Below are positions 3,601-59,922 of a stretch of 64,000 nt of DNA, one piece after another. The notes below the pieces were generated by a model, which made no database searches, had not been told where the DNA came from, and saw only the letters and a program-made list of their open reading frames with translations. The stretch comes from Paraspadella gotoi (taxonomy: Eukaryota; Animalia; Chaetognatha). Where the stretch lies: contig CM119269.1 of the NCBI GenBank assembly GCA_051294375.1, positions 17,927,026-17,991,025 on the forward strand, written 5' to 3'. A program made the translations under genes and the position numbers. The stretch's first letter is position 1; each line of letters starts with the position of its first letter.

Positions 3601-5443
3601 ATACTATGGGCGTATGCGAAAATTGCGAAATTTAAAAAATATATATATATCATGGTTCGTTAGTATAAGACTGTTTATGAACAACTATTCGAATTTTGAT
3701 CTGCAACTTTCACTACGCCTTACTGCTCATCTCCTCAAACGATGCCTCGACAGAATCTCATCTCGACGGCGCATTGTATTTCTTCTTCCCTGCCCGTGCC
3801 CCCCCCCTCCACGCAGGCTACACCATCTTCTCCACCTTCACTGCTTTCTACATCCCGATGATCCTCATACTCTTCGTTTATTGTCAAATTTTTCGCGTCG
3901 TCAAACAAAAGCAAAACGCGATGAAGCGAATGAGGTACGAGATTACTTGAAAATTGCGAATTAATAACTAATAATTAATAACTAACTTAAGATTTTTATA
4001 TTTTATAATGGGGAGGGGGGATGTTAGAGTTGTTTTCTGGAAAAAAAGGGAGGATCTAGTGGAGATCATGATTATTATTATTAGGAGAAGAAAATAAAAT
4101 CTCGCGGCCAAATTCTTTAAAAAGAAATTGTTTTTAAATTAAAATTGGTCAAACGCCGGTTGCAAAACATTATTTGGGAGTATTTTTAGAATTATTTTCT
4201 TTACAAACATAAACCAAAGTTTTTTCTCTCTCTCGCCTTGTAAAAATGATTGCCACTTCGTGCTATTAGCCAATTCTATTCCATTTCGCCATTTTTATCT
4301 CGACCAAACTATCTAATAGATAGTATCTATCTATACTTTACTTACAACCCAAGGTTACTATACTTTCTATGTTGGATTTTTTATTAGACATTCCACATCG
4401 TTCTTGTTAGGGTGTCATTTTGTTTATAAAAGGCCAAACAGAAAATGGGTGGAAGGGATAATTTTGAGATTATGATTAGATACGATAGGCTATTATTATT
4501 GGAAATTTATTACCAAACTTCTCAAACGTATCATCATGATTTAAAATCTCATGTCGTATACTCCCATCACAGGGCGGCGAATCTCAAAATGAAAGGATTG
4601 GAGAGTCACCACCGCGCGCTCGTTCCGGTCGAAAGTCAGACTCAGGTAAATGTGACGTCTTGGGAATCGAGTTAGGGGCGGTAAGGTCAGTCTAAGATTA
4701 GATTGAGATGATCAGCCTCGATTTGTTAGTTGAATGAAAATTTTAGACTGTATATATCAAGGGTAGTGTCGCTTACTGAGTCCTTGCCCTGAAGTCAAAG
4801 GTCGATGCTTTAATTTTGGTGTGAGAAAAATTGGACCTTTAATTTAAAAATTAAAACATTAAAAAAAAAAACTGCTCCCAGACAATTAACCAAGAATATT
4901 TTACCCCTCTAATCAGTGCGACTACAAAGCCGCTCACCTGACGACCGAGAACACGGCCAGCGTTTCTGTCAGCCCAACAGCTTCCGGATGCGGTAAGCGT
5001 GTCATTGCCGCTGCTCTACCAGGCTGTTGCTGTCTCTCGATGCATCGCAGCGTCCTGAGGCGACTAAGTAATTTAATCAATTAACAAAAAAAAACTTTTG
5101 TTTGGGTTTAGTTAAATTACCGAAGCGCGATTCGCCGAAAGCGACGAAACTGAAACAGACACACAAGTCGGTGAGTCGTAGACTGTAACGTGACTGAGGC
5201 GACAGTTGTGTGACAACTTACATAATCCATATATTGGTTGTACCATTTTCATAAAAAACTTTCTCACAAGAAATCGTTCAGATGAGCAAATGTAAACGTG
5301 TTGAAATTTGATGTAATATGACGTGATGTGATATCAGCTGATATGATGAGAAAAAAAAAAGTCTTCTGACAAGGATAAAAAATGTTAGATACTTGTTCTC
5401 ACTCTGTTTCAATCTTGCTCCAAGCACCGCTCTTTTTACCCTT

Positions 5444-5541
<98 letters not shown>

Positions 5542-7054
5542 CTTTGTCGCTCTCACTAACTTTTAATTTCACGGTTAAATCACAAATTTAATTCGGCCCC
5601 CGAACAAAAAAAGCTTAATTTCCTTCGAAAGATCTCTCCCAATTTACGGTTCTACGGTTTCGTATCTCATTATCTTTTACCACCCTAAATCCCGCCACCC
5701 TCCAACCACTCCATCCATATCCTCCACAGTACCACAAGCGGTCTCGACGATCCACTCGGATCCTCGGCCTCGTCATCGGCACCTTCACCCTTTGCTGGCT
5801 TCCGTTCTTCATCAACGCTCTGGTCCGTGAATAGGGCGTCCTCGATTTTTACATTTATCATGATGATTTACAATAATGAATATTGAGGAAGGAATATTGA
5901 ATGATAGATAATGGATAATTTCAATATAAACCAAAAAAGATAATACGAAAAAAAAAACGACAAGAAAAAGAAGTAGCAGTGACGATAAAATAATTATTAA
6001 TTAATTGAAATGATATTGGGTAATTATTATAATCAATCCACGAAACTGAAAAAAAAAATTTACTTGTCGGTCCCCGTCAAAAACCGGTCCTCTCAAAAAT
6101 TTCATATTTATGGATTCATAGATAAAAGAAATCTTTGCCTTGGAAGGCATGTGGGGTTTTATGAGTAGGCGTTTTGAGTCTCAACATTATTATTTTTCAA
6201 CTAATCTCCGAGAAAGACGTTTGAGAGAATTATTTCCCTGAGGATTGTAGTATTCTCAGCAATTCGAATATAACTTGGAAAGGAAAGGGGTTGTAATATA
6301 AGACCACCAAAAAAAAATATATATTGTATTGTATATATATTGTATATATATTGTATTTTGATGCTAGTGCGGAGTACAATAAGTATTCCCCGATCTAATA
6401 CTTAAGGGAGTGGTCTTTTCATACATTTGAAACATTCTTTGAAATATTATACCACTTCATTGATAGGGAAGCCAGGTACTCTGGGAGTGAATAAACGGGA
6501 CTGTGAGAGAGTCTTGATTGAAAGCTTGCAGGGACCTGCAATGTAATTATCTTGTAAGAGTGATGGAGGCCTTGAACCACCAAGGCCTGTCCAAAGTCAG
6601 GGGCAAGATAGCTTATTTATTAAATGAATGGATAATTTTTATATTGGTTGTACCAATTTCATATATATAGAGTGAAAAAAAATATAAAAACAATAATTCT
6701 GTGAAACAAAAGGATTTGAATAGCTCTACGCAGTATTAGGCAGTGTAACTTTTGAAAGGATACCACAAAAAATGATGTATATCTTTGATATTTGAAAAAA
6801 AAACCAAGTTTTTCACTCCCATTCTAATTTCTATTGAGATCCCATTAAAAGATGCAATGTTTATTCGACCAACCCTTTCCTACATCCTCTGCTAGGTGAA
6901 ACCCTTTGTGTCCTCCTACGCCCTTCCCCCTTCCTTCGCCTCTCTCTTCCTCTGGCTCGGATACTTCAACTCAACCCTCAACCCGCTCATCTACGCCGCT
7001 TGTCACGACGAACTGAGGAACAACTTTTGCCGACTTTTACGGTGCCGGTGCTGA
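602..7054 (+). CDS. Biogenic-amine (5-HT1-like serotonin) class A GPCR, multi-exon; N-terminal exon not identified
   Basis: Exons about 602-818 (TM1 IFGNSLV, TM2 SLAVA(D)..VMP; contains indel errors), 1513-1724 ([29 protein letters not shown], with D3.32), 2849-2941 (AWILPAF..LLGW..CMLSQDK), 3817-3934 ([14 protein letters not shown]), 4573-4645, 4917-4992, 5112-5170 (ICL3), 5730-5822 ([13 protein letters not shown]), 6896-7054 ([17 protein letters not shown]). All GT-AG with compatible phases from 1513 on. Confidence 0.9.
3200..3648. mobile_element. Foldback/MITE-like element in GPCR intron
   Basis: Long imperfect inverted arms: caattttcgcattacgcccata / tatgggcgtatgcgaaaattg and gattcgaattcctca / tgaggaattcgaatc; flanked by TA repeats; non-coding. 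Confidence 0.55.
6352..6663 (+). mobile_element. Dispersed repeat R1, probable Penelope-like (GIY-YIG 3' end) relic
   Basis: Near-identical reverse copy at 28864-29178 and further copies; translates (with frameshift) to [22 protein letters not shown]....SCKSDGGL, resembling the C-terminal part of PLE GIY-YIG endonucleases. Confidence 0.55.
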
Positions 7055-15900: not shown

Positions 15901-17377
15901 AGACTGATGATGTTGTGAGTGGCACTGAACTCCACTTTAGAAACTAATCTACAATGAGCTAAACTTTCCTACTCCTATCTTGCAATTGTAATTGGTGATT
16001 TTTCAAGATTAAACTTTTCTATTGATGCTTATTTGGTTATCACTGGAAAAAAAAAATAAAATGCTGAAAATAAATTTAGTTTTAATAAATGTATGCTTAT
16101 CATTTAATTCTTTTTTTATCAAAATAATAGAAATAGAAATAATAGAGTTAGTTTTTTCAACTTTAAATATGTTGATACAAATTAGTATTAGTATTAGCAT
16201 CTTTAGTTTTGGTTTAAACTTTTTTACTAAATATTTAGCTAGAAAACATGAACCTTATTAAAAAATTTTTAAAAAAACGGCAGGTGAATTAACTGAGAAA
16301 AGAAGAAATGATGAAGTGATAAGCCACTTTATAAGTGTTGATCTTAACTGCTCTTTGTTCGTCAATTGTGTCATAAATCCCTAATCTTCGGAAACAACCG
16401 AAGACTGATGTAAAAAAAATTGACTTTAAATAAGTCACGGTTCAGGAACTGGAACCAGTAGCCTCGAGCATAGTTCGCGTTGTCGGCTTCCATTATTCCA
16501 TTATAGCGATTCATACTAGGCTAGGGAGGAAACTTCAAATTTCAGTATAGGTACGAAAGTTCAGCATTTAATTATTAAAATTACAGAGATAACAAGAGAT
16601 AGGATTTTTTTTCTCACAATTTTCTCCTCTTTTTTATTTTTAATTCAAATATCTCTTACGATATTTGCGTCATTCACTTTTGTAGTTTAATCATAAGTAC
16701 CTGTTTTTTTATTCAAATGAATCTGTTTGTTTTCTTTGTTTGTAAACAACTTCTTTATTTCTTTTCTTTTCCTCATCAATCTTCTCCACCATATTTCAGT
16801 GACGACCTGCTTCAACTTTCCCGAATCCGAAACGACCGCTCACGTCGACATCCGCCCGCTCAAACGAGAGAACCTCAACTCCTTGACCTTCGACGTCATG
16901 TACACAATGCGAAATGAAACTAAGGACCCGTGGATCCTGAGTTTCGTCAGCACGGACCACAAACACGAGCTGCTCATCGGACCTAACAAGGGATTCCACG
17001 TCAAATCCGGCAGCGTCGCCACCGTCTTGAAGTCCTCCATGGGCAAGAAGATGCGCCTGACGATCGTTTGGAACCTCCTCACCGGAGATTTCTCCGTTTA
17101 CGAGAACATGAAGTTGGAGCGGAAGGGAAATATGAAGACGACCATCTCGACGGAGGGTTTTTTCATGCTGGGACAGATGCTGGGGGTGGATGGATACGAA
17201 TCGGAGAAAAGGTTCATCGGCAAGCTGTGCGGGTTCCAGATGTGGGACAGGGTGCTCTCCAAACAGGAGCTGGAACACCTGTTCCAGGGGGATTTGAGCG
17301 AGAAGGGAAATCTCTTCGATTCGCCCGCCACCTACGAGTTTGAGTTAAAGGATGGGGCAGAGGGTGCAAACCCGTAG
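11803..17377 (+). CDS. Secreted Cys-rich long-pentraxin-like protein, paralog A (610 aa)
   Basis: Exons 11803-11869, 12161-12243, 12421-12452, 13048-13223, 13444-13664, 14464-14690, 14778-14896, 14973-15031, 15132-15310, 15659-15750, 16800-17377 sum to 1833 nt, open throughout. Signal MELKGLLLLVFVVTLAEA; propeptide ending SLSKR; pentraxin motifs FIGKLCGFQMWDRVLS and GNLFD. Confidence 0.92.
12600..12850 (+). repeat. Degenerate (TTAGGG)-like tract in intron 3 of gene A
   Basis: ttagggttagggatttggg-type units. Confidence 0.55.
13788..14054 (-). mobile_element. Solo LTR-like element carrying tRNA-like boxes and a twister-like fold
   Basis: 4-bp TSD CTAT (13784-13787 / 14055-14058); short imperfect inverted termini; minus strand shows a 5' hairpin, A-box-like TGTCTCAATGG, B-box GGTTCAGTCCC, then a twister-like module (13844-13925). 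Confidence 0.75.
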
Positions 17378-20689: not shown

Positions 20690-23600
20690 ATGGAACCGAA
20701 GAAGGTTTTCCTCTTCGTCTTCGTCCTCGCGGTCGCCGAAGCTTCTTACCTCAAAGGTGAGTTCAGAGCATAAAAGTAATTCGAATCGTAAATAGCCGAA
20801 TTGTCTGGTTTTATTCGTTTGATGGCGTTCTTTTATGGTCGTTTATTTTATGAGGGAATATTTGCATATTGGAGGGACAATTAACAACATTGCACTTTTC
20901 AAATGCAGTTTCTTTTTTTAAACTTTGTATTCGTGATGGAGTATATTGTTTTTTTTTTTTAAATGTTGGATAATATTATATTTAATTTGTTCACTGCAGA
21001 GTTGAGGGATAAACTGAACCTTCTCAACAAAAAGAGTGAGCTCAAGACTCTCAAAGAATTTCTCCGCGAAAATCCGAATCTGGTAAAATGTTCTGTCATA
21101 TCGTATTTCTTTCCTATTGTTTGAAAATAAAAGAAATAGCTATGTGTATTTCTCTGATAAAGTGTGATTGTGAAGCAAACATCGTTAATGTTCACATTTA
21201 TTAATTTTCTTTTATTATTATTTCTTTTATCAGCAGATCCCGACTCTATAATTCACTTTGTCGGTCCGTCGGTCCACCCCCTCAATCTTGTCGGGCATTC
21301 GCTTATATTATGTCCATCCGTCCGTCCGTCGTCCGTCTGTTTATCGGTCCATCCGTCCGTCCGTCAGTCAATTAATCAATTAATTATTCAATCAATCAAT
21401 TTAATTATCTATTAATTAATTATTATATCAATCAATTTATTTATCAATTAATTAATTATTTAATCAATCAATCAATCAAGTCAATTGTTATCGACATTTT
21501 TGTCGTCGTCGCCATCATCGTCGTCGTTGCTTTTGTCTGGTCAGTAATGAAAAAATCTTAAAACAAACATTTCGGATCAAATTAATGGATTTGTTAATTA
21601 ATTACCGTTAATGATCGCGGGCAGATCCGACATTAATTGCTAAACCTTGTTTAATTTTTTTCCACTTTTTCCGAAATACTAGGGACACGAAAGTCTAGAA
21701 AAGCGAGAAACACTGTAAGTACTTTGGTCGTGAACAGTTGTTGAATGCATGCTGTAAACGTTACGAGTTCCATGGATTTTACGTTTTTGTTTCATAATCT
21801 CTTTAAAATTTAAACTTTAAATTATTATTGTTGTGTATGTATAGTTGAACTAACGAAGAAATAAGTTTTTAGGACGTAGGTATCCTGTTTCATTCTATTT
21901 TCGCTCGGATATTCCGTTTTATGAAATTGGTACAACCAGTATAAAAATTATCCATTTATTTAATTGATTTTGAATAATTTTGACTTTGGACAATTGACAG
22001 GCTATACTGGTTTAAGGCCTCCATCCCGCTTACAAGAATCTCTGAGAGTCGAGTTTCTTCACTCCCAAAGTACCTGGCTTCTCTATCAAAGAAGTGGTAT
22101 AATGTTTCAAAAATAGTGTAAATTGTAAAAAGGACCACTCCCCTCGTTGAGCAAGTGTGTGATGTTTTTGAAGTTGGTCGACAATGTGATTTAGCTGTGC
22201 TTCCTGCACGTTTTCCACCAGGGAATGCAACGAAGTTTGCGGTCCGCTGCCAGGCGTCGATGGAAATGTTGAGTGCAGAGAGTGGGCGCCTGATTACAAG
22301 TCGAACGGCAAGTGTCGTTGCATCGTTCAATTCAAATGTTGTCCCGATCCATGTCCCAAACCCAAACAAGAAGTTTGCTGGGGACCCCAAAAGGGTGAGT
22401 GAAAAGGGCAGTCAATTTCCCACTAAACAACGCATGGAATTGAAATGGTTATTCCATACGATTTAAAAAATATATATTTTTTTAAAATTAGTTCTATAAA
22501 TATATTTTAGATATGCGTATTTTTTTGCTACATGCTACTATATAAATTTTCGACACTTATGTTAAACACTAGAAGTTTTGAATAAGCATCTTCCTCTTGT
22601 TCAGGTTATAAATATCCAGTGGTTGAAACCGACTGCTGTGGTTGTGATATTTACGCTTGTCACGACTGCACACCTGTGGCTAAACCAGACGAAATCTGCG
22701 AACTTCCTGGCAAGAATTACCCATTGTCCTGCTTCTCTTACAACGCAACGGGATTGTCGGATAAAGTGACTCAATGCTACGAAGCTAATTGTCCCTTCAC
22801 TCCGCCGCCACCACCGACCGCAGAGGTTCGCCTTATTGACTTAATGACTTACTTCATTTATTAACTCATACGGCAACAGCCGGGTTGCCTGCGATGCCCA
22901 TTGGGATGGGGCATCTCACTGTTGGCTTTTGGGGCTTCCGACCCTCAGTGACACCTCCTGTCACTGGCGCGGTTACCCTAGGACTGTCTCGCTTTGCCAA
23001 CACAGAGGGAAGTCGTTAGGACTGTTGATTGTGAAAGGAACGTAACTCTTGGGATGGTGCGTTCCCCCTCTGAGCCATGAGATTGGCTGAACGATGTGAG
23101 GCGGTGTGAATATACCGCCACACTCATTCATTTATTCATTCTCTCTTTTAATCATCATTTCTCCTAATATTTTACTCTTTTTTTATAACCCTCTTTTTTT
23201 ACCAACCTTGAAAACCTCAACTCACGATCTGATCACAGACGTGTGACTTCGATTGCATGCGGACCGACCCGCGCAAGGACGAATGCGGTCAGGGCTACGA
23301 CGTCTGCGTGAGCAACAAAGTCAAGAGCGACTGTCCCTTGGACTCGCAAGAGGAAAGTGCCGTTGGTCTCAAGTATGGACTTCATTGCTATCACGCTCCC
23401 AAGGAAGTGCCTCACCCGATCGGAGGAAAGTGGTATCTCGCTCACAAATGCGTCGATTGCGTCAAGTGAGTTAGAGGCAACGGTTTCGTATCGGAATAAT
23501 ATTTTTTTGTATTACTTCCTAAACTTTTTAAAAAAAATTATAAATGTGCATTTTATAACTTTATTGCTTCCAGGTGGGACTACCATAAAAAATCTTGTGA

Positions 23601-25232
23601 CGACAAAAATCTGCGCGCTGCCAACTACGCTTGTCCTCACCAAAATAATACTTTCCTCGACAAAGTTTGTTGGGACAAAATTATCAAGCATGGTGCGTCT
23701 GAAAAAAACAAAAAAACATTCTCATTGGGGTAAAAAAAAAAAAATTACGATGGACATAATATTCTTTGTTTCCAGATTCATGTGATTGTGACGTGCCCGA
23801 TTGTGAACGAGCGCCACAACGATCAGCCACGCACGTGAGTCTATCTCTTACTCTACTTCGAACCTATTTCATATGGTCAAATTTTATCGCAATAACGTAT
23901 AATTTTGTCATTTTTTATTTTCAGAAATTCCCCGCAGGCGAAAGATGTCCCACCGGGTACAAAAAAGTGACTGGGGTTTCCATTTGCGATTATCCTCGGG
24001 ATGTTTGCCTCAAATGTCCCGATCTCGAAGATCCTGACGACTGCGACTTGAACATCGCCAAGATTGGCGTCGACCGCGATGCTAACGATTGCCCTGTTAG
24101 GAGGTAAGATCACTCTAATTTTAAATTATAAGAGGGAAAGCATAATTAAATATACGATGTTTACACTATGGTGGACTAAAATCGACCAACCGTTCATCAG
24201 CGACCATTGGTGCCGGAGGCAAGTCATTCGCCTCCCAACCCAAAGGTCCCGGGTTCTAGCTCGATGGTCGCCTAGCAGTTAAGAGGGACGGGGCGCTTAA
24301 CCCGCTTGTAACACGGTGTTACAGCCTGATCCGAAACTCAGGGACTGCTTATATTGAACGGTTCTGTCACATAACAATCATTACTGTCTCTTCAACACAA
24401 TCTTAATTAGCAGCGTGATTAGATTTCTGTCGATAATTTTCATCACAGACATGTAAAAAATTAATCTCTCATTTTACATATAGATGTAAGTGGCCAACAG
24501 TTCCCAAAGGTGATTGCGATTCCGACACTTATTTCTTTGACAAAACCAAGAAAGAGTTTTTCTGCATTCCGAAACGTAAGTAACGAGTTCAACAACTTTG
24601 ATCTTAATTCTTGATCCCTAACCGTTTCGTCACATTTCAATCCAGCGATGACCTGCTTCGAGTTTCCCGCCTCGGAGCTGAAGGCCAACGTGGTTGTCCA
24701 CCCTCTGATCGAAAAGAACCTGAAGGCCTTCACCTTTGACATCCACTATACTATAACGCAAATGACGAGCGACGTGTGGTTCTTTAGCGTGGCTCACTCT
24801 AGACACGACAACATCATCGTCATAGGCCCCAAACGAGGCATTCACTTGGAGTCCGGCGCACTTTACTCGGAACTGACGCCCAGTTTGGGCAAAAGTACTC
24901 GACTGACTCTGACTTACGACGGCGAAACCGGAAACATCAAAGTTTACGAAAACGGTCAGCCAGAGAGAACCGCCAATAGGAAGAACACGGTCCTCCTTCA
25001 AGGCTCCTCCGTAATGCTTGGACAGGAACAGGACAGCGTTGGAGGCAGATTTGACCCCAATCAGAGATTCATCGGCAAGCTGTGCGGATTTCAGATGTGG
25101 GACAGGGTGCTGTCGGATGCGGAGCTGAAGCAGTTGTTCGAAGGGAAGTTGCAAGAGAAAGGAAATGTGTTTGATTCGCCCGCTACTTACATGTACGAGT
25201 TAAACGCGGGAGCGAAAGAGACTGAGCCTTAA
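20690..25232 (+). CDS. Secreted Cys-rich long-pentraxin-like protein, paralog B (612 aa)
   Basis: Exons 20690-20756, 21000-21082, 21683-21714, 22222-22394, 22605-22825, 23239-23465, 23574-23692, 23776-23834, 23925-24103, 24484-24575, 24646-25232 sum to 1839 nt, open; same intron phases as A; propeptide ends SLEKR; intact LGQEQDSVGGRFDPNQ calcium-site motif. Confidence 0.93.
21920..22150 (-). mobile_element. Diverged R1 (Penelope-like) copy in intron 3 of gene B
   Basis: Aligns by eye to the reverse complement of 6352-6663 with many substitutions and a deletion. Confidence 0.65.
22869..23122 (-). mobile_element. Solo LTR-like element related to 13788-14054, with twister-like fold
   Basis: 4-bp TSD CTCA (22865-22868 / 23123-23126); same terminal motifs (TACGGCAA...GCCACA); A-box-like TGGCTCAGAGGG but no clear B box; twister-like module 22920-23002. 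Confidence 0.75.
24167..24394 (+). mobile_element. Solo LTR of the tRNA/twister-like TRIM (intron 9 of gene B)
   Basis: Clearly similar to the LTRs at 27419 and 27842; TA...CA ends; 4-bp TSD ACAC. Confidence 0.88.
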
Positions 25233-26440: not shown

Positions 26441-27451
26441 TCATTGGCGGAGGAGTAGTCATTTAATGGTTCGAGTTTGTTTTCGTTGATAAATTTATAT
26501 GTTTAATCCGAGTTATTGATATTCTTTTTAAAACCGTCACTTAATGTCCGTTTATGTCACTAAACATCATCGTTGATGAACTAAAATAAAATTTGTCTCT
26601 TGTTTTAATTATTCATTCATTTTGAAATTTAGATAGAAAAACGTAATGTCAAACTGTGGAACCGCAAGCGACATTGAAATTACAATTACGAATTCGCTCG
26701 AGATATTTATGACATTGTAATTGAGGAACCACGCGACATCCGCCCTTGAGCTAAAAAAAAAATTTATTGACAATAAATATTGAACTTCGTTTGGGGACTC
26801 CACCCAGATTTAAATGTTTCTGATTTCGATGTGGTTGTCTTTGCATGCTAGTGAAAAAAAATATACACTGTCGATGACCGATAATTGTCGCACAAAAGTC
26901 AAAAACCGCCTTTACTTTTGGCCGTAAACTCTCGAATCTTAGTTCTTCCTTTGCTTCTAAAGTAAAACAAAAAGTTTAGGTAATGAAAGAGGCCAAAGTT
27001 TATGATGCCATTAAATTACATATAGACACAGAGTTCGAACAAAAGACGGAGGCGGAAACTATTTTTTTAAAAATTGAATAACGTTTATAAATAGAAGCTT
27101 TTCATATAATTATAACAAATGTTAGTATATAATCAATCCTCAAGCATCGAGCAGGCTGTAAACGCCCCTGGTGTCTGCCATTAGAAATCGAGTACGACAC
27201 GAGTTAGAGACAAAAGACAAAAGATTGAAAAACGTGTGGCGTAATAGATCAAAGTGAGTAACAGGAGGTTTGGGGACAGGTTAAATAAAAATTTCTTGTT
27301 TTCTTTCTATTTGTTTTTTTTTCCGTTTGTAAAAGTATAAAAGTAGTTGTCCCTCTCTCCAATAGGTAGTTCCAGTTCAAACGAAGATTTGCTTCTATAT
27401 TTGGAAAAAATATGCATCTATGGTGGACTAAAATCCACCAATCGTTCATCA

Positions 27452-27524
27452 GCGGCCATTGGTGCCGGAGGCAAGTCATTCGCCCTCCCAGCCCAAAGGT
27501 CCGGGGTTCTAGCCCGGTGGTCGT
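27452..27524 (+). ncRNA. tRNA-derived module inside LTR (Gly-like, probable Pol III promoter; not a functional tRNA)
   Basis: 73 nt; acceptor GCGGCCA/TGGTCGT pairs fully (2 G-U); T-arm CCGGG-GTTCTAG-CCCGG; A/B-box-like motifs; anticodon stem unpaired. Confidence 0.75.
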
Positions 27525-27527
27525 CTG

Positions 27528-27601
27528 GCAGTTAAGAGGGACGGGGCGCTTAACCCGCCTGTAACATGGTGTTACAGCCTGATCCGAAGCTCAGGGACTG
27601 C
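27528..27601 (+). ncRNA. Twister-ribozyme-like fold (P5-type permutation) in LTR1; copies at 27950-28023 and 24275-24348
   Basis: P5 GCAGTT/GACTGC; GA-CGG(T1); TAA; GC(T2); P3 CTGTAACA/TGTTACAG; P4 CCTGA/TCAGG enclosing L4 T-CCG-AA-GC, where CCG pairs with CGG. P2 is short/imperfect and P1 minimal. Confidence 0.6.
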
Positions 27602-28115
27602 TTATATTGAACGGTTCTGTCATTAACACTTATAAATAATTACTGTCTCTTCATTGGTGAGCCCGACTTCCGAACACAACAGCAACAACAACACTTTCAG
27701 GCGACATGCCTCAACCTGGCGATGCACTTTCCGCCCACAACACATCAGGCGACATGCCTCAACTTGGTGATGAACTTTCCACCAACAACAACAATTCACT
27801 AAAGAGACGCCACAGACTTCTCCCTATGGGAGGAGGGGATGTATGGTGGACTAAAATCCACCAATCGTTCATCAGCGGCCATTGGTGCCGGAGGCAAGTC
27901 ATTCGCCTCTCAACCCAAAGGTCCGGGATTCTAGCCCGGTGGTCGTCTGGCAGTTAAGAGGGACGGGGCGCTTAACCCGCCTGTAACATGGTGTTACAGC
28001 CTGATCCGAAGCTCAGGGACTGCTTATATTGAACGGTTCTGTCATTAACACTTATCAATAATTACTGTCTCTTCACATCCATGGTATATCCTTTCTTTTC
28101 GTTGTTGTATAGAGA

Positions 28116-28247
28116 TTTACAAAGAATTTTGAATTGTTACAACGATTTTATCATGATTAAATTGCAGACTCGAAAATCTCAGAGTCGAAACATGTCTGCA
28201 ATTTAATCATAATAAAATCGTTGTAACAATTCAAAATTCTTTGTAAA
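28116..28247. repeat. 54-bp-arm palindrome with a hammerhead-like degenerate loop
   Basis: Arms 28116-28169 / 28194-28247 (1 mismatch); centre CTCGAAAATCTCAGAGTCGAAACATGTC. Confidence 0.8.
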
Positions 28248-28316: not shown

Positions 28317-29447
28317 ATGGACACCAAGAGTGTTTTTCTTCTTTTTCTCGTCGCCGCCATCGCCAAGGCTATTATCCAGGGTAATTGAGTTAATGAGTTG
28401 AAATAACGGCAATACTGAATAGCTCGAAATACGGACACCGTCGAGAATGTAAATATAAAATAATAAATGATTTATGTTTCCTTTGTATTTCAGAGCCCAA
28501 TGAGCAATTGCAGACTTTGGAAGAATACCTGCGAGACAATCCAAACGTAAGTTATATACCTTTTTTTCATATTCTTTTTTTTTAAACTTAATTTTTATGA
28601 TTACTTTTTCTGCAGAAAGGACAGGAAATCTGGACGCGGGGTCAGCGGTAAGTTTATCGGTGTAATGGGTGTGTCTTGCTTAGCTTCAAAACTTTTTACT
28701 TTAGCCTATGGCTATGCTTCTTTTATTTTTGCTTTTTAATTAACCTTCAACGTTTTCTAATTAACGTTTTTGTTTTTGTAATCATAAACGCATGATTTAG
28801 TTGCTGGTACCTTTTTCCGTTACAAGTTGTACATTTATCGTATTATTTACTAGTGTCTATATATATGAAATTGGTACAACCAGATTATTAAAAATTATCC
28901 ATTCATTTAATAAATAAGCTATCTTGCCCCTGACTTTGGACAGGCTTTGGTGGTTTAAGGCCTCCATCACTCTTACAAGATAATGACATAGCAGGTCCCT
29001 GCAAGCTTTCAATCAAGACTCTCTCACAGTCTCGTTTATTCACTCCCAGAGTACCTGGCTTCCCTATCAATGAAGTGGTATAATATTTCAAAGAATGTTT
29101 CAATTGTATGAAAGACCACTCCCTTAAGTATTAGATCGGGGAATACTTATTGTACTCCGCACTAGCATCAAAATACAAGGAGCTGAATTTTATGAAATTG
29201 GTACAACCAATATAAAAATTATCCATTCATTTAATAAATAAGCTATCTTGCCCCTGACTTTGGACAGGCTTTGTGGTTTAAGGCCTCCATCACTCTTACA
29301 AGATAATGACATAGCAGGTCCCTGCAAGCTTTCAATCAAGACTCTCTCACAGTCTCGTTTATTCACTCCCAGAGTACCTGGCTTCCCTATCAATGAAGTG
29401 GTATAATATTTCAAAGAATGTTTCAATTGTATGAAATATATATAAAT

Positions 29448-30954: not shown

Positions 30955-32336
30955 TTTAGAAAGTTTATTTCCATCTATCTTTCTTTCTTTCTTTCTCTCT
31001 TGCTTTCTTTTTTTTTCAAATTTCAATATTTCTCAGCCTTGATTAAAACAGTAAATCTTCTTTCTTTCCTTAAAAGAAATTTTTGGACGGCGAACGATGT
31101 CCTCGGGGCTACAAGAAGATAACGGGCGTTTCCATCTGCGCCTACCCGCGCGACCTCTGCTTCCGATGTCGTAAAGTCAGGGATCCCGTCGATTGCGACC
31201 TGAAGGTGGATAGGATCGTCCACGATCGAGACGCCCACGGGTGTCCCGTTAAGACGTAAGGAGGAGATTTTATTTGGGGGGGGGGAAGAATTAGAGAAAA
31301 ATATAATGGTGGCTTAAAAAAAGGATTTCGAGATTTCGATTTAATAGTTGTAATTAGCTAAAATTAACGAAAGTTACAAAGACCGAGATAAACTTTGAAT
31401 AAAACATTTAATATTTTTTCCGTAACTATGAAGTCTCTCACATTTTTTTCCCAGTTGCCAGCGGTCATCTGTTCCGAAAAAATACTGTCGCTCGTCCACT
31501 TACTATTTTGACAGGCGACAAAAAACCTTCGAATGTATCCCTAAAGGTAAGCCATTTCGTAGGTAAGTCAATCTGTGCCTCTGGTCGTCCGATTATTTTA
31601 TTCAATCCGCTGTCAGGCTCTCAAACTCTTCGGCTTCCAGAACAAATCACCAATTTTATCAACTTGCCTGACCTTCTATTCTCACCTTTTTTCCCTCCGC
31701 CCTCCTCTTTCCCCCCCAGCTTTGTACTGCTTCGTCTTTCCAAAGAACCAGATCGAGGCTAACGTTCATATCAAACCGTTGATCGAAAAAGACATCGACG
31801 CCTTCACCTTCGACGTCTACTACACTATGACCTCCCCGACGAAGGATCCTTGGATCTTGAGCTGCGCTCACAAAAACAAGTACAACGCTCTCGTCATCGG
31901 TCCGAAAGATGGCGTTCTGGTCGGCTCCAAGTCGCTCTACACGAGACTGACGCCCCCTCTGAACCAAGAGACGCACTTGACGATCGTTTGGAACGGCGTC
32001 ACCGGCGACATCCGGGTCTTCGTGGACGGAAAGCTGGAGAGAAGAGGGAAGAATAAGGCGAAGACGGGGAAGACGGGGAAGAAAGTGTTAAAGGGATGTC
32101 GCATGATCTTGGGTCAAGAGCAGGACGAGGTCGGAGGAAAGTTTGACCCGACACAACGATTCGTGGGGAAACTGTGCGGGTTTCAGATGTGGGATAGGGT
32201 GTTGAGCGAGGCTGAGCTGAAGTTGCTGTTTGACGGACGGTTGCCGAAGAATAAAAATGGGAATCTGTTCGACTCACCACCGAGTTATAAGTACGAGCTG
32301 TTGAAGGGAGCCACGAAAATCATTTCCTACGACTAG
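28317..32336 (+). CDS. Secreted Cys-rich long-pentraxin-like protein, paralog C (610 aa, Lys/Arg-rich)
   Basis: Exons 28317-28380, 28494-28546, 28616-28647, 29642-29826, 29916-30133, 30263-30492, 30623-30726, 30797-30855, 31077-31255, 31455-31546, 31720-32336 sum to 1833 nt, open; signal MDTKSVFLLFLVAAIAKA; LGQEQDEVGGKFDPTQ motif. Confidence 0.92.
28864..29435 (-). mobile_element. Tandem full + partial R1 (Penelope-like) copies in intron 3 of gene C
   Basis: 28864-29178 and 29190-29435 are near-identical to each other and to the reverse complement of 6352-6663; partial-tandem arrangement is typical of PLE pLTRs. Confidence 0.7.
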
Positions 32337-58409: not shown

Positions 58410-59922
58410 CCCTCATCTCTCTCCTGATTCACTATCTCAAAAATTAAAGGTTTTCATCAATTCTTCGATATTAAAGCGAGTCTTGAAAGAAAGCTTGCAG
58501 GGACCTGCCTATATCATTATCTTGTAAGATGATGGAGGCCTTAAACCACCAAAGCCTGCCCCAAAGTAGGGTCCAGATAGCTAATTTATCAAACGAATGG
58601 ATAATTTACCTGTCGATTGTACCAATTTCATAATACATCAAATTCCATATATAATTATAAAACATAATCTCCCCCCCCCGTCATTTCAACCCACCGTTTT
58701 CCGTCTTCGCCGACATAAGAAGGAGTGACCTCTTCTCTCTCTCTCCCTCCTCCTCTTCCTCCTCCTCCTCCTCGTCGTCAGCATCGATGCAGACGACGCT
58801 TCGGCGTCGTTGTCTCCATCGTCGTCGTGCGTCGGTCGAGAAGGGAACGACGACAGAGGCGTTGTATCGTTTGGCGCAGGTGGTCGAACAGAATCGACCG
58901 GATTTGCGGAATTTCTCCGCCAGATCGAACTTTTAAGGGGAGAGAGGGGTGATAGAAAGGGGGGGTTAGGGGAATTAAAGCCGTAGATGGGGATTGGGAT
59001 GGGGATGCAGATGGGGATGGGGATGTTGTGGGGATGTGGATGGGGTTTGGGATGTTGTGGGACAAAAACGTTTAAAAATGCCCAAAAATGAAGGAATGAC
59101 TTGGACTCAATGATCTCACAATAAGTTTTGAGAAGTCACCTCATGTCATTTCGAATCATCTCATCTCGTTTCGAATCATTTCACTTCATTTTAAGTCACC
59201 TCACCTCACGATCTATTTTTTAACTGAATTATTTTAATCGTACCTTACCCATCAGCCTCGTCTTAAACCACCCCTTACCCGTCCAACTCCCCGATTCAAA
59301 AAATTAACTCACCTTCCCGCATTTCTCGCACTTGAGCTTCGGCTTCGCCTCACCCTGCGTCGCCAGCGCCTGAGCCATGAGCCGCTGCTGATCCCCGGGG
59401 TGAGAGGGCAAATGGCAGGGGTAAGGGCGGAGTGGCGGATGAGCCGCGCGGGGCCGAGCCTTCCGGCTCCATGCCGCCGCCGACGGGGTTCGTCGAGGAA
59501 GGGCTGGAGGAGCGGAGGCGACGCCGGCGCGGACGAGGCTGTCGCTGCTGACGCTGCTGAAGGATCATGCGTCTCCAATCAGGGAAAGTTCGGGCGCTTG
59601 AGAATCAGAATCTGTGGGAAGGGGGAGGGGGATAAGTATTTATTAATTTAATTAATTTAATTATTTCATATCCTCTAGTTTACAACAGAGTATTTAATCA
59701 ATAACAAGTCATTCACAAATCAAATTATTGATCAGTTATTCACAAAAACCAATACAGTCACAAACCAGTAAATGCTCCTCATCTCCCCTCCTCCTCTTCC
59801 CCCTCCTTCCTCCTCATCTCCCCTTCCTCCTCCTCCTCATCTTCCCCCTCCTCCTCACCTGATCTTCCTCTTTCGATTCTCATCGTCAAAGATTTTTTTC
59901 TTTTCTTTTCTTTCTTTTTCCT

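What the first reader, a model, noticed from the sequence alone, without database searches (positions are those of the whole stretch)
27419..28075. Miniature LTR retroelement whose LTRs carry a tRNA module fused to a twister-like self-cleaving fold (candidate twister retrozyme)
Seen: a complete non-coding TRIM (two LTRs of about 235 bp, tRNA-Trp-like PBS, PPT, 4-bp TSD). Each LTR is ordered 5' hairpin (TGGTGGA/TCCACCA), 73-nt tRNA-like unit, then a fold matching a P5-permuted twister: UAA, GC for T2, P3, P4 with L4 U-CCG-AA-GC and its T1 partner GA-CGG, all closed by P5. Established: Cassandra TRIMs carry 5S sequence in their LTRs; tRNA-bearing TRIMs with 4-bp TSDs in animals have been described (Helenus, recalled from memory); plant retrozymes carry hammerheads in their LTRs and replicate via circular RNA. 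Inference: Pol III transcription from LTR1 and cleavage at U/A 27551/27552 and 27973/27974 would release a 422-nt unit containing PBS and PPT that could circularise. I am not aware of a tRNA-promoter + twister LTR element having been described. Caveat: P2 is only about 3 bp with a mismatch and P1 is minimal.
Basis: partly seen in the sequence, partly recalled or inferred. Interest (0 to 1): 0.92.

Follow-up and report, generated by a model that had tools for sequence, protein, structure and literature searches.

The report
Animal LTR element with paired twisters
A 657-base non-coding jumping element, repeated many times in an animal genome, carries a conserved twister-ribozyme fold in each of its two terminal repeats; the two folds are predicted to pair with each other and cut out a 422-base RNA that likely circularises, a plant-style strategy that I could not find described for an animal LTR element or for a twister ribozyme.

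Summary
The element is real: two 235/234-bp LTRs (98% identical), a tRNA-Trp-like primer site, a polypurine tract, 4-bp target duplications, a solo LTR nearby and many other insertion sites in sequencing runs.

Rfam does not score its LTR fold, but the twister reading holds up. A model built only from phage twisters ranked both LTRs first in the window. It also exposed a second repeat family, with no significant sequence match to the first, whose fold Rfam scores as Twister-P5 (E 1.3e-4, below the curated cut-off). Between the two families all 21 pairs are kept (11 by double change, both pseudoknots included) and 14 of 14 core bases are identical.

New here: P1 is not a hairpin but a self-complementary hexamer in both families, so it probably forms between the two LTRs, like double hammerheads. 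Best reading: a Helenus-like TRIM working as a twister retrozyme. The tRNA module is degenerate. Cleavage, dimer formation, Pol III transcription and circles are untested.

The parts
27415..27418 (+). left target-site duplication (CATC)
   Evidence: sequence
27419..27653 (+). LTR1, 235 nt, ends TA...CA
   Evidence: loose ends at both boundaries
27421..27440 (+). 5' hairpin, 7 bp with 6-nt loop
27440..27448 (+). 5' strand of an enclosing helix that pairs with 27608-27616 and brackets the tRNA-like and twister domains (predicted)
   Evidence: MFE fold; the common variant at 27442 turns a G-U into G-C
27452..27524 (+). degenerate tRNA-like unit, putative internal Pol III promoter (A box about 27460-27471, B box about 27505-27515)
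   Evidence: no ARAGORN or Rfam tRNA hit
27527..27602 (+). type-P5 twister fold in LTR1: P5 27527-32/27597-602; P2 27536,38,39/27554-56 with bulged A27537; GA 27540-41 (predicted general base G27540); T1 27542-44/27584-86; U^AA 27551-53; T2 27557-58/27589-90; P3 27559-66/27570-77; P4 27578-82/27591-95
27545..27550 (+). self-complementary hexamer in the place of P1; predicted to pair with its copy at 27967-27972
27551..27552 (+). predicted cleavage site 1 (U^A)
   Evidence: inferred from twister consensus
27655..27672 (+). primer-binding site, tRNA-Trp-like
27697..27790 (+). two imperfect 46-nt internal repeats between CAA runs, non-coding
   Evidence: family D7; no ORF of 150 codons or more here
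27828..27841 (+). polypurine tract
   Evidence: sequence
27842..28075 (+). LTR2, 234 nt
27949..28024 (+). twister fold in LTR2, identical to that of LTR1; predicted cleavage site 2 at 27973/27974
28076..28079 (+). right target-site duplication (CATC)
24167..24394 (+). solo LTR of the same family, about 90% identical, duplication ACAC; a G-to-A change in L4 breaks pseudoknot T2
29245..29304 (-). comparator: homologous twister fold in the second repeat family (E2, copy A); Rfam Twister-P5 28.1 bits, E 1.3e-4; hexamer at 29281-29286
28921..28981 (-). comparator: second twister fold of E2, 323 nt from the first

Best explanation
This is a high-copy, non-coding LTR element (TRIM) whose two LTRs each hold a conserved type-P5 twister fold; it is likely transcribed from the tRNA-derived module of LTR1, and its two ribozymes are predicted to pair through a self-complementary hexamer, cut at both U^A sites and release a 422-nt RNA that would circularise and be copied by a Ty3/gypsy partner. 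Shown: LTRs, primer site, polypurine tract, 4-bp duplications, many insertions, the fold, its covariation with a second family, and the self-complementary hexamer in both families. Inferred step 1: Pol III starts near 27445-27452 and reads through, as the sense strand has no T4 run. Inferred step 2: once LTR2 is made, the hexamers of LTR1 and LTR2 form a 6-bp P1 and two domain-swapped active sites; a solo LTR or the monomeric circle has one hexamer and would cut poorly. Inferred step 3: the 5'-OH and cyclic-phosphate ends, held together by P5, P2 and T1, are joined by a host ligase. Inferred step 4: tRNA-Trp primes reverse transcription on the circle, which rebuilds both LTRs without an R region, and a gypsy integrase makes the 4-bp duplication. 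The twister may have been captured from a Penelope-like (Naiad-type) tail such as the neighbouring E2 family; that origin is a guess.
For: Twister identity: blocks match the Rfam P1 consensus and the S. mansoni table, including P3 strand letters that were in nobody's descriptor. Of 59 distinct phage P5-order sequences with a 3-nt P2 strand and P4>=3 bp (from 131 loci), 50 have a perfect 3-bp P2; 9 more (from 35 loci) also carry P3. The T1 variant used here occurs in phage twisters: 23 of 45 distinct candidates from 121 loci have a perfect P2. A model from 30 phage twisters ranks both LTRs first in 64 kb (13.4 bits, E 0.18, rough). E1 versus E2: 21 pairs, 8 same, 2 changed on one side, 11 on both sides, 0 broken; 14 of 14 unpaired core bases identical. 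Nulls: 0 of 2,000,000 for P5+T1+T2+P1 and 2,506 of 2,000,000 for T1+T2+P1 alone. No BLAST match between the families at E<1.9. Selection within the family: 1 of 22 listed LTR variant sites falls in the 70-nt core (binomial P 0.004), though the core has 4 CpGs. Activity prior: natural twisters tolerate defects in P1 and P2 but not in pseudoknots or catalytic bases, which are intact here (PMC11662667). Dimer: both hexamers self-pair fully (-8.3 and -9.1 kcal/mol; top 1.1% and 0.5% of hexamers) with the central pair swapped between families, a pair that cannot form in a hairpin; Rfam aligns E2's P1 with a 0-nt loop; the swapped fold is nested and 5.7 kcal/mol better than two monomers. Precedent: palindromic helix III and dimer hammerheads (PMC4209133, PMC7229834); circle model of plant retrozymes (PMC4918200).
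Against: No cleavage, transcript or circle data: none could be obtained here. Rfam gives E1 no twister hit at E<=10, and both custom models give E1 only marginal scores (E 0.18; E 0.036-0.11). The pseudoknot-free MFE prefers a competing helix (27539-45 with 27554-59) that blocks T1, T2 and P2: -27.3 versus -19.5 kcal/mol for the nested part of the active fold, and -207.3 versus -189.0 for the whole transcript (pseudoknots not scored). The pair closing L4 is A-U here but G-C in 30 of 30 phage sequences. Natural phage P5 twisters nearly all have a long P1 hairpin. Covariation rests on one comparison of two families, with registers fixed by me. The variant table showed 40 of 130 rows and depends on this copy's own mutations; the one core variant breaks T1 in 3-14% of depth. 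The A and B boxes each deviate from consensus, and lack of T4 is weak (43% of shuffles also lack it). The solo LTR has lost T2.
Confidence: 0.58

Rival explanations
1. The twister is active but serves as a 3'-end maker: only the LTR2 site is cut efficiently, leaving a linear RNA with an R region of about 100 nt (tRNA module to the cut site) that is copied by ordinary LTR strand transfer; no circle is needed.
For: The sense strand has no Pol III terminator, whereas many Helenus LTRs in the parts read carry a T-run right after the tRNA module. The competing helix could delay the LTR1 cut. Conventional LTR replication needs an R region (PMC10886601).
Against: The two ribozymes are identical in sequence and the swapped fold builds both active sites at once. 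Plant elements of the same layout cut twice and circularise (PMC4918200).
Confidence: 0.2
2. The twister is a relic: it was captured with a piece of a Penelope-like tail, has since lost activity, and the element moves as an ordinary Helenus-type TRIM.
For: No Rfam hit for E1; stable competing helix; T2 broken in the solo LTR and a T1-breaking minority variant. The covariation with E2 could predate the capture.
Against: Only the catalytic fold, not its flanks, is shared with E2. Common family variants avoid the core (1 of 22 sites). All catalytic and pseudoknot positions are intact in both LTRs.
Confidence: 0.12
3. The twister is active as a monomer without P1 (mini-twister-like), and the palindrome is incidental or serves RNA dimerisation for packaging.
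For: P1 is dispensable for twister cleavage (PMC5408937 abstract; PMC11662667). A 6-nt linker could close the gap sterically (inference).
Against: Two different hexamers of the same length are both strongly self-complementary with a swapped central pair at exactly the P1 position; a 1-bp hairpin costs 3.9 kcal/mol.
Confidence: 0.08
4. The twister resemblance is chance in a GC-rich LTR.
For: Relaxed descriptors hit 0.034 times per shuffled window, so a very large scan would meet some false hits.
Against: P3 and P5, not in the descriptor, are also perfect; a second family has the same fold with 11 double changes and an Rfam Twister-P5 hit.
Confidence: 0.02

Closest known systems
Plant LTR retrozymes (Cervera, Urbina, de la Pena 2016, PMC4918200; passages read)
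   Same: Non-coding; a ribozyme in each LTR; primer site, polypurine tract, 4-bp duplications; a unit-length RNA without an R region predicted from the two cuts.
   Different: Twister instead of type III hammerhead; animal host; tRNA-Trp instead of tRNA-Met primer; smaller unit (422 nt against 600-1000); a tRNA-derived module in the LTR; ribozymes predicted to need pairing. Circles are shown for plants, untested here.
Helenus TRIMs (Kojima 2024, PMC10886601; main text parts 1-4 of 6, supplement parts 1, 6, 8 of 11 and two motif searches)
   Same: TRIM with a tRNA-like unit in each LTR, 4-bp duplications in animals, gypsy-type primer sites including tRNA-Trp; a few wasp families also start with TA.
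   Different: The paper never mentions twister; no twister L4 motif was found in a Helenus LTR (search can miss motifs split by line ends). There the tRNA unit usually sits near the LTR 3' end before a T-run; here it sits near the 5' end and is followed by the ribozyme.
Type-P5 twister ribozymes (Rfam RF02684; phage examples fetched here)
   Same: Block order, U^AA, GA, L4 with both pseudoknots, 3-bp P2, optional P3.
   Different: P1 is a 6-nt palindrome, not a hairpin of 5 bp or more; bulged A in P2; a real P5 stem; A-U closing L4; E1 scores below detection in Rfam.
Dimeric (double) hammerheads of Penelope-like elements and animal non-LTR retrozymes (PMC4209133, PMC7229834; passages read)
   Same: A helix too short to form alone, capped by a palindrome, completed by a second copy in a tandem transcript; proposed to allow cutting of multimers and spare the circle.
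   Different: Different ribozyme class; those elements lack LTRs, primer site and polypurine tract.
Twister variants of Perere-3 in Schistosoma mansoni (Liu et al. 2021, PMC8501958; abstract and sections 3, 17, 19 read)
   Same: Twister used by an animal retroelement; similar P3 and L4 letters.
   Different: Type P1, one copy at the 5' end of a non-LTR (RTE) element; no LTRs, no circle.

Membership tests
TRIM / Helenus | Under 1 kb, non-coding, two LTRs with primer site and polypurine tract | tested here: met
TRIM / Helenus | 4-bp target duplication (animal families) | tested here: met
   CATC and, for the solo LTR, ACAC
TRIM / Helenus | tRNA-derived sequence with A and B boxes in the LTR | tested here: inconclusive
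   No ARAGORN or Rfam tRNA hit; 73-nt span, degenerate boxes; a 13-nt variable-loop/T-arm motif of the solo LTR occurs 13 times in the Helenus supplement, 12 of them in LTRs
TRIM / Helenus | Descent from a described Helenus family | not testable with these tools
   No Repbase or Dfam search; the paper itself proposes several origins
TRIM / Helenus | Pol III transcription from the tRNA module | not testable with these tools
   No raw RNA reads were offered
Twister ribozyme | L1 with U^AA and the general-base G of GA; conserved U and AA of L4 | tested here: met
   (14 of 14 unpaired core bases shared with E2)
Twister ribozyme | Pseudoknots T1 and T2 | tested here: met
   All 5 pairs Watson-Crick; one double change in each against E2
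Twister ribozyme | Stems P2 and P4 | tested here: met
   P2 3 bp with bulged A, P4 4-5 bp, both covarying with E2; 3-bp P2 common in phage type-P5
Twister ribozyme | Stem P1 (a hairpin in type P5) | tested here: not met
   No hairpin can form; a 6-bp duplex between two copies can. P1 is reported dispensable
Twister ribozyme | Score at the Rfam twister cut-off | tested here: not met
   E1: no hit at E<=10; E2: 28.1 bits against 37.6; positive controls scored 48.8-60.5
Twister ribozyme | Site-specific self-cleavage | not testable with these tools
   bench test needed
LTR retrozyme | A self-cleaving motif in each LTR of a non-coding LTR element with primer site, polypurine tract and 4-bp duplication | tested here: met
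   (motif predicted, not assayed)
LTR retrozyme | The motif is a type III hammerhead | tested here: not met
   No hammerhead hit in Rfam scans; the fold is twister
LTR retrozyme | Unit-length circular RNA accumulates | not testable with these tools
   Only assembled contigs were available
Non-LTR retrozyme / Penelope-like derivative | Tandem units without primer site, polypurine tract or 4-bp duplication | tested here: not met
   E1 has all three and forms solo LTRs; the neighbouring E2 family fits this pattern better

The most novel reading that the evidence does not exclude
An animal LTR retrozyme built from three borrowed parts: a tRNA-derived Pol III promoter, gypsy replication signals and an obligate-dimer twister. 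The two LTR ribozymes complete each other's active sites through a palindromic P1, so only full-length transcripts are cut and the resulting 422-nt circle is protected from recutting. The same dimer twister runs a second, Penelope-like family in the same genome, which would also explain why Naiad-type elements appear to lack hammerheads.
Probability: 0.45. Interest if true: 0.9.

Novelty: new variant of a known kind. Interest (0 to 1): 0.82.

Why it matters
LTR retrozymes are described as plant elements with type III hammerheads, and animal retrozymes as non-LTR (bioRxiv 10.64898/2026.07.22.740005, passages). If this element cleaves, the retrozyme strategy arose again in animals with another ribozyme class and a different promoter, and natural twisters can work as domain-swapped dimers. 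That would be a second case, after hammerheads, of a ribozyme gated by copy number in the transcript. It is a small (657-bp), directly testable system for circular-RNA retrotransposition. It also shows a twister subtype that Rfam cut-offs miss, which bears on the reported absence of ribozymes in Naiad elements (PMC8557442).

Tried and rejected
No whole genome is held, so copies could not be aligned. Rfam: no twister, hammerhead or tRNA hit on E1; nothing at gathering level in the whole window. Sequencing runs: no RNA holder listed; one run guessed to be RNA holds the element but may be DNA, so it says nothing on expression. A finer variant table for the ribozyme alone was not obtained, so linkage and rare-variant covariation within the family stay open. 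Metagenome scan with a 16-mer: 117 loci, best match to the element 26 nt or shorter, all treated as chance. The shared E1/E2 motif was absent from viral and prokaryotic collections (0 hits each).

My idea that published Helenus LTRs hide twisters was not supported in the parts read and by motif search. An alternative P1-type fold using the downstream CGG at 27612-27614 was rejected by inspection: no catalytic GA and no P2, and the stretch is paired in the enclosing helix. An early note calling E2's P1 a hairpin was wrong; it has no loop. Several phage hits first counted as P1-type with a 3-nt P2 strand proved to be type P5. A possible Penelope endonuclease beside the diverged E2 copy at 21917-22142 was dropped: the frame is interrupted by stops and the other strand reads as a Cys-rich host exon (no family scan run).

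The host could not be placed below 'animal' (pentraxin and GPCR exons; no homologue at E<=1e-10; Atlas taxa uninformative). The supplement of PMC11662667, which lists tested twisters and might hold a relative, could not be read. Repbase and Dfam could not be searched.

Full report
OBSERVATION. The element spans 27419-28075: LTR1 27419-27653, a 188-nt non-coding middle and LTR2 27842-28075, the LTRs differing at 5 sites, with CATC on both sides. A solo LTR at 24167-24394 (about 90% identical) has its own duplication ACAC. In public runs of the same organism 18,105, 2,762 and 1,100 contigs fell on the stretch, with loose ends clustered at both LTR boundaries, so the family has many insertions and its ends are TA...CA. 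The primer site matches the tRNA-Trp site printed for Gypsy-32_NVi and Helenus-2_SyJa at 12 of 13 bases. A polypurine tract abuts LTR2. The host is an animal (pentraxin and GPCR exons); I could not place it further.

THE tRNA MODULE is the weakest part. ARAGORN and Rfam find no tRNA. It keeps a 73-nt span with acceptor-like and T-arm-like stems, and A and B boxes with about one deviation each from the recalled consensus. A 13-nt variable-loop/T-arm motif of the solo LTR occurs 13 times in the Helenus supplement. tRNA origin is likely; promoter activity is inferred. The sense strand has no T4 run, but 43% of shuffles of the unit also lack one.

IS THE FOLD A TWISTER? Against: Rfam gives no twister hit at E<=10, while phage controls score 48.8-60.5 bits. 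The pair closing L4 is A-U, against G-C in 30 of 30 phage sequences. A pseudoknot-free fold prefers a helix that blocks the active site. For: a relaxed descriptor that ignores P3 and P5 hit only the two LTRs in the window, 11 of 242,732 LTR shuffles and 26 times in 763 window shuffles; none of 27 phage matches to the primary motif had P4. The blocks, including the P3 strand letters, resemble the Rfam P1 consensus and the S. mansoni table.

These searches selected for the 3-nt strand, so they show that the layout is common, not its share of all P5 twisters. The T1 variant is natural too (23 of 45 distinct candidates from 121 loci with perfect P2). In the CHiTA survey, defects in P1 and P2 were tolerated and defects in pseudoknots or catalytic bases were not (PMC11662667, sections 32, 33, 35 read). 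Those positions are intact in both LTRs.

THE DECISIVE COMPARISON came from the window. A covariance model built from 30 phage P5 twisters ranked both LTRs first (13.4 bits, E 0.18, rough) and next a fold in a second repeat family, E2, at 29252-29297 and 28928-28974 on the minus strand. Rfam scores E2 as Twister-P5 at 28.1 bits, E 1.3e-4, below the 37.6 cut-off. E1 and E2 share no BLAST match better than E 1.9. Yet of 21 pairs in P5, P2, T1, T2, P4 and the P1 hexamer, 8 are the same, 2 change on one side, 11 change on both sides and none breaks; 14 of 14 unpaired core bases are identical, including the bulged A of P2. Random placement of the same number of changes never kept all pairs in the helices not modelled as pairs (0 of 2,000,000) and kept T1, T2 and P1 in 2,506 of 2,000,000. 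A model from three E2 copies ranks the three E1 LTRs directly after the five E2 copies (E 0.036-0.11). This is one pairwise comparison with registers set by me. Within E1, 1 of 22 listed LTR variant sites lies in the 70-nt core (P 0.004; only 40 of 130 rows were shown).

P1 PROBABLY FORMS BETWEEN TWO COPIES. In both families six bases separate T1 from the cut site, against hairpins of 5 bp or more from the first position in 39 of the 50 phage examples; 10 more start with a mismatch before a hairpin, judged by eye. Neither hexamer folds alone. Both self-pair over all six positions (-8.3 and -9.1 kcal/mol, top 1.1% and 0.5% of hexamers), with the central pair swapped between families. In an LTR1-to-LTR2 transcript the domain-swapped arrangement is nested, all 48 pairs are valid, and it is 5.7 kcal/mol better than two P1-less monomers, though 18 kcal/mol above the pseudoknot-free MFE. 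This mirrors double hammerheads with a palindromic helix III (PMC4209133 and PMC7229834, passages). I noted this before reading earlier scan notes. Those notes report palindrome-armed P5 twisters in Naiad elements of other genomes; they are unchecked leads, and none of the 8 shown (of 9) describes an LTR element with primer site and polypurine tract.

MECHANISM. Shown: anatomy, copy abundance, fold, covariation, palindrome. Inferred: Pol III transcription from LTR1; paired cleavage at 27551/27552 and 27973/27974; ligation of the 422-nt unit into a circle holding the primer site, polypurine tract and one permuted LTR; tRNA-Trp-primed copying and integration by a gypsy partner, as modelled for plant retrozymes (PMC4918200, passages) and suggested for animal Helenus. 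I put this chain at 0.58. The main rival (0.2) is that only the LTR2 cut matters and yields a linear RNA with an R region. A relic ribozyme (0.12), a monomeric one (0.08) and chance (0.02) follow.

COMPARISON AND NOVELTY. It works like an LTR retrozyme but fails that family's type III hammerhead criterion. It is a TRIM and Helenus-like, with the tRNA criterion inconclusive. The Helenus paper has no mention of twister and no L4 motif was found in its LTRs (FASTA read only in parts 1, 6 and 8). Ten literature searches returned no twister-bearing LTR element, no animal LTR retrozyme and no natural dimeric twister; a 2026 preprint still places LTR retrozymes primarily in plants. The library lacks most subscription papers; Roth et al. 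2014 was not read; Repbase, Dfam and the CHiTA supplement could not be checked. Other papers seen as passages only: PMC6765202, PMC13725137, PMC10085705, PMC8557442; PMC5408937 parts 1-2 of 7.

VERDICT. A real feature and a new variant of a known kind, with two additions a specialist would not expect: a twister retrozyme of LTR type in an animal, and a twister that appears built to act as a dimer. Interest 0.82.

Noticed in passing
window 28864-29436 (minus strand); further copies 6351-6663 (+), 58475-58633 (+), 21917-22142 (-), 5222-5256 (+): Second non-coding repeat family (E2): about 1.8 tandem units of 323 nt with a type-P5 twister in each. All five copies share one 3' end, the others are shorter at the 5' end, and two lie in TA runs. 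This fits a non-autonomous Penelope-like (Naiad-type) derivative or non-LTR retrozyme with a twister; Naiads prefer (TA)n and lack canonical hammerheads (PMC8557442). No autonomous partner was seen. The copies at 58475 and 21917 have damaged folds.
   Followed up: partly
window 28116-28247: Near-perfect inverted repeat (54-nt arms, 98%, 24-nt spacer) 40 bp downstream of the element, MITE-like; gives spurious miRNA-family hits below cut-off.
   Followed up: no
window 16721-17377, 24615-25232, 31563-32336: Three related exons; the first two score as pentraxin domains in Pfam, the third is similar by eye. A tandem gene cluster in which these elements sit.
   Followed up: no
L202, L231, L612, L665, L704, L741: Phage contigs often carry two or three twisters close together, some back to back.
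   Followed up: no
L583-L741 (IMG/VR loci): Many phage type-P5 twisters have a 3-bp P2, whereas the Rfam P5 consensus has 4 columns there.
   Followed up: partly
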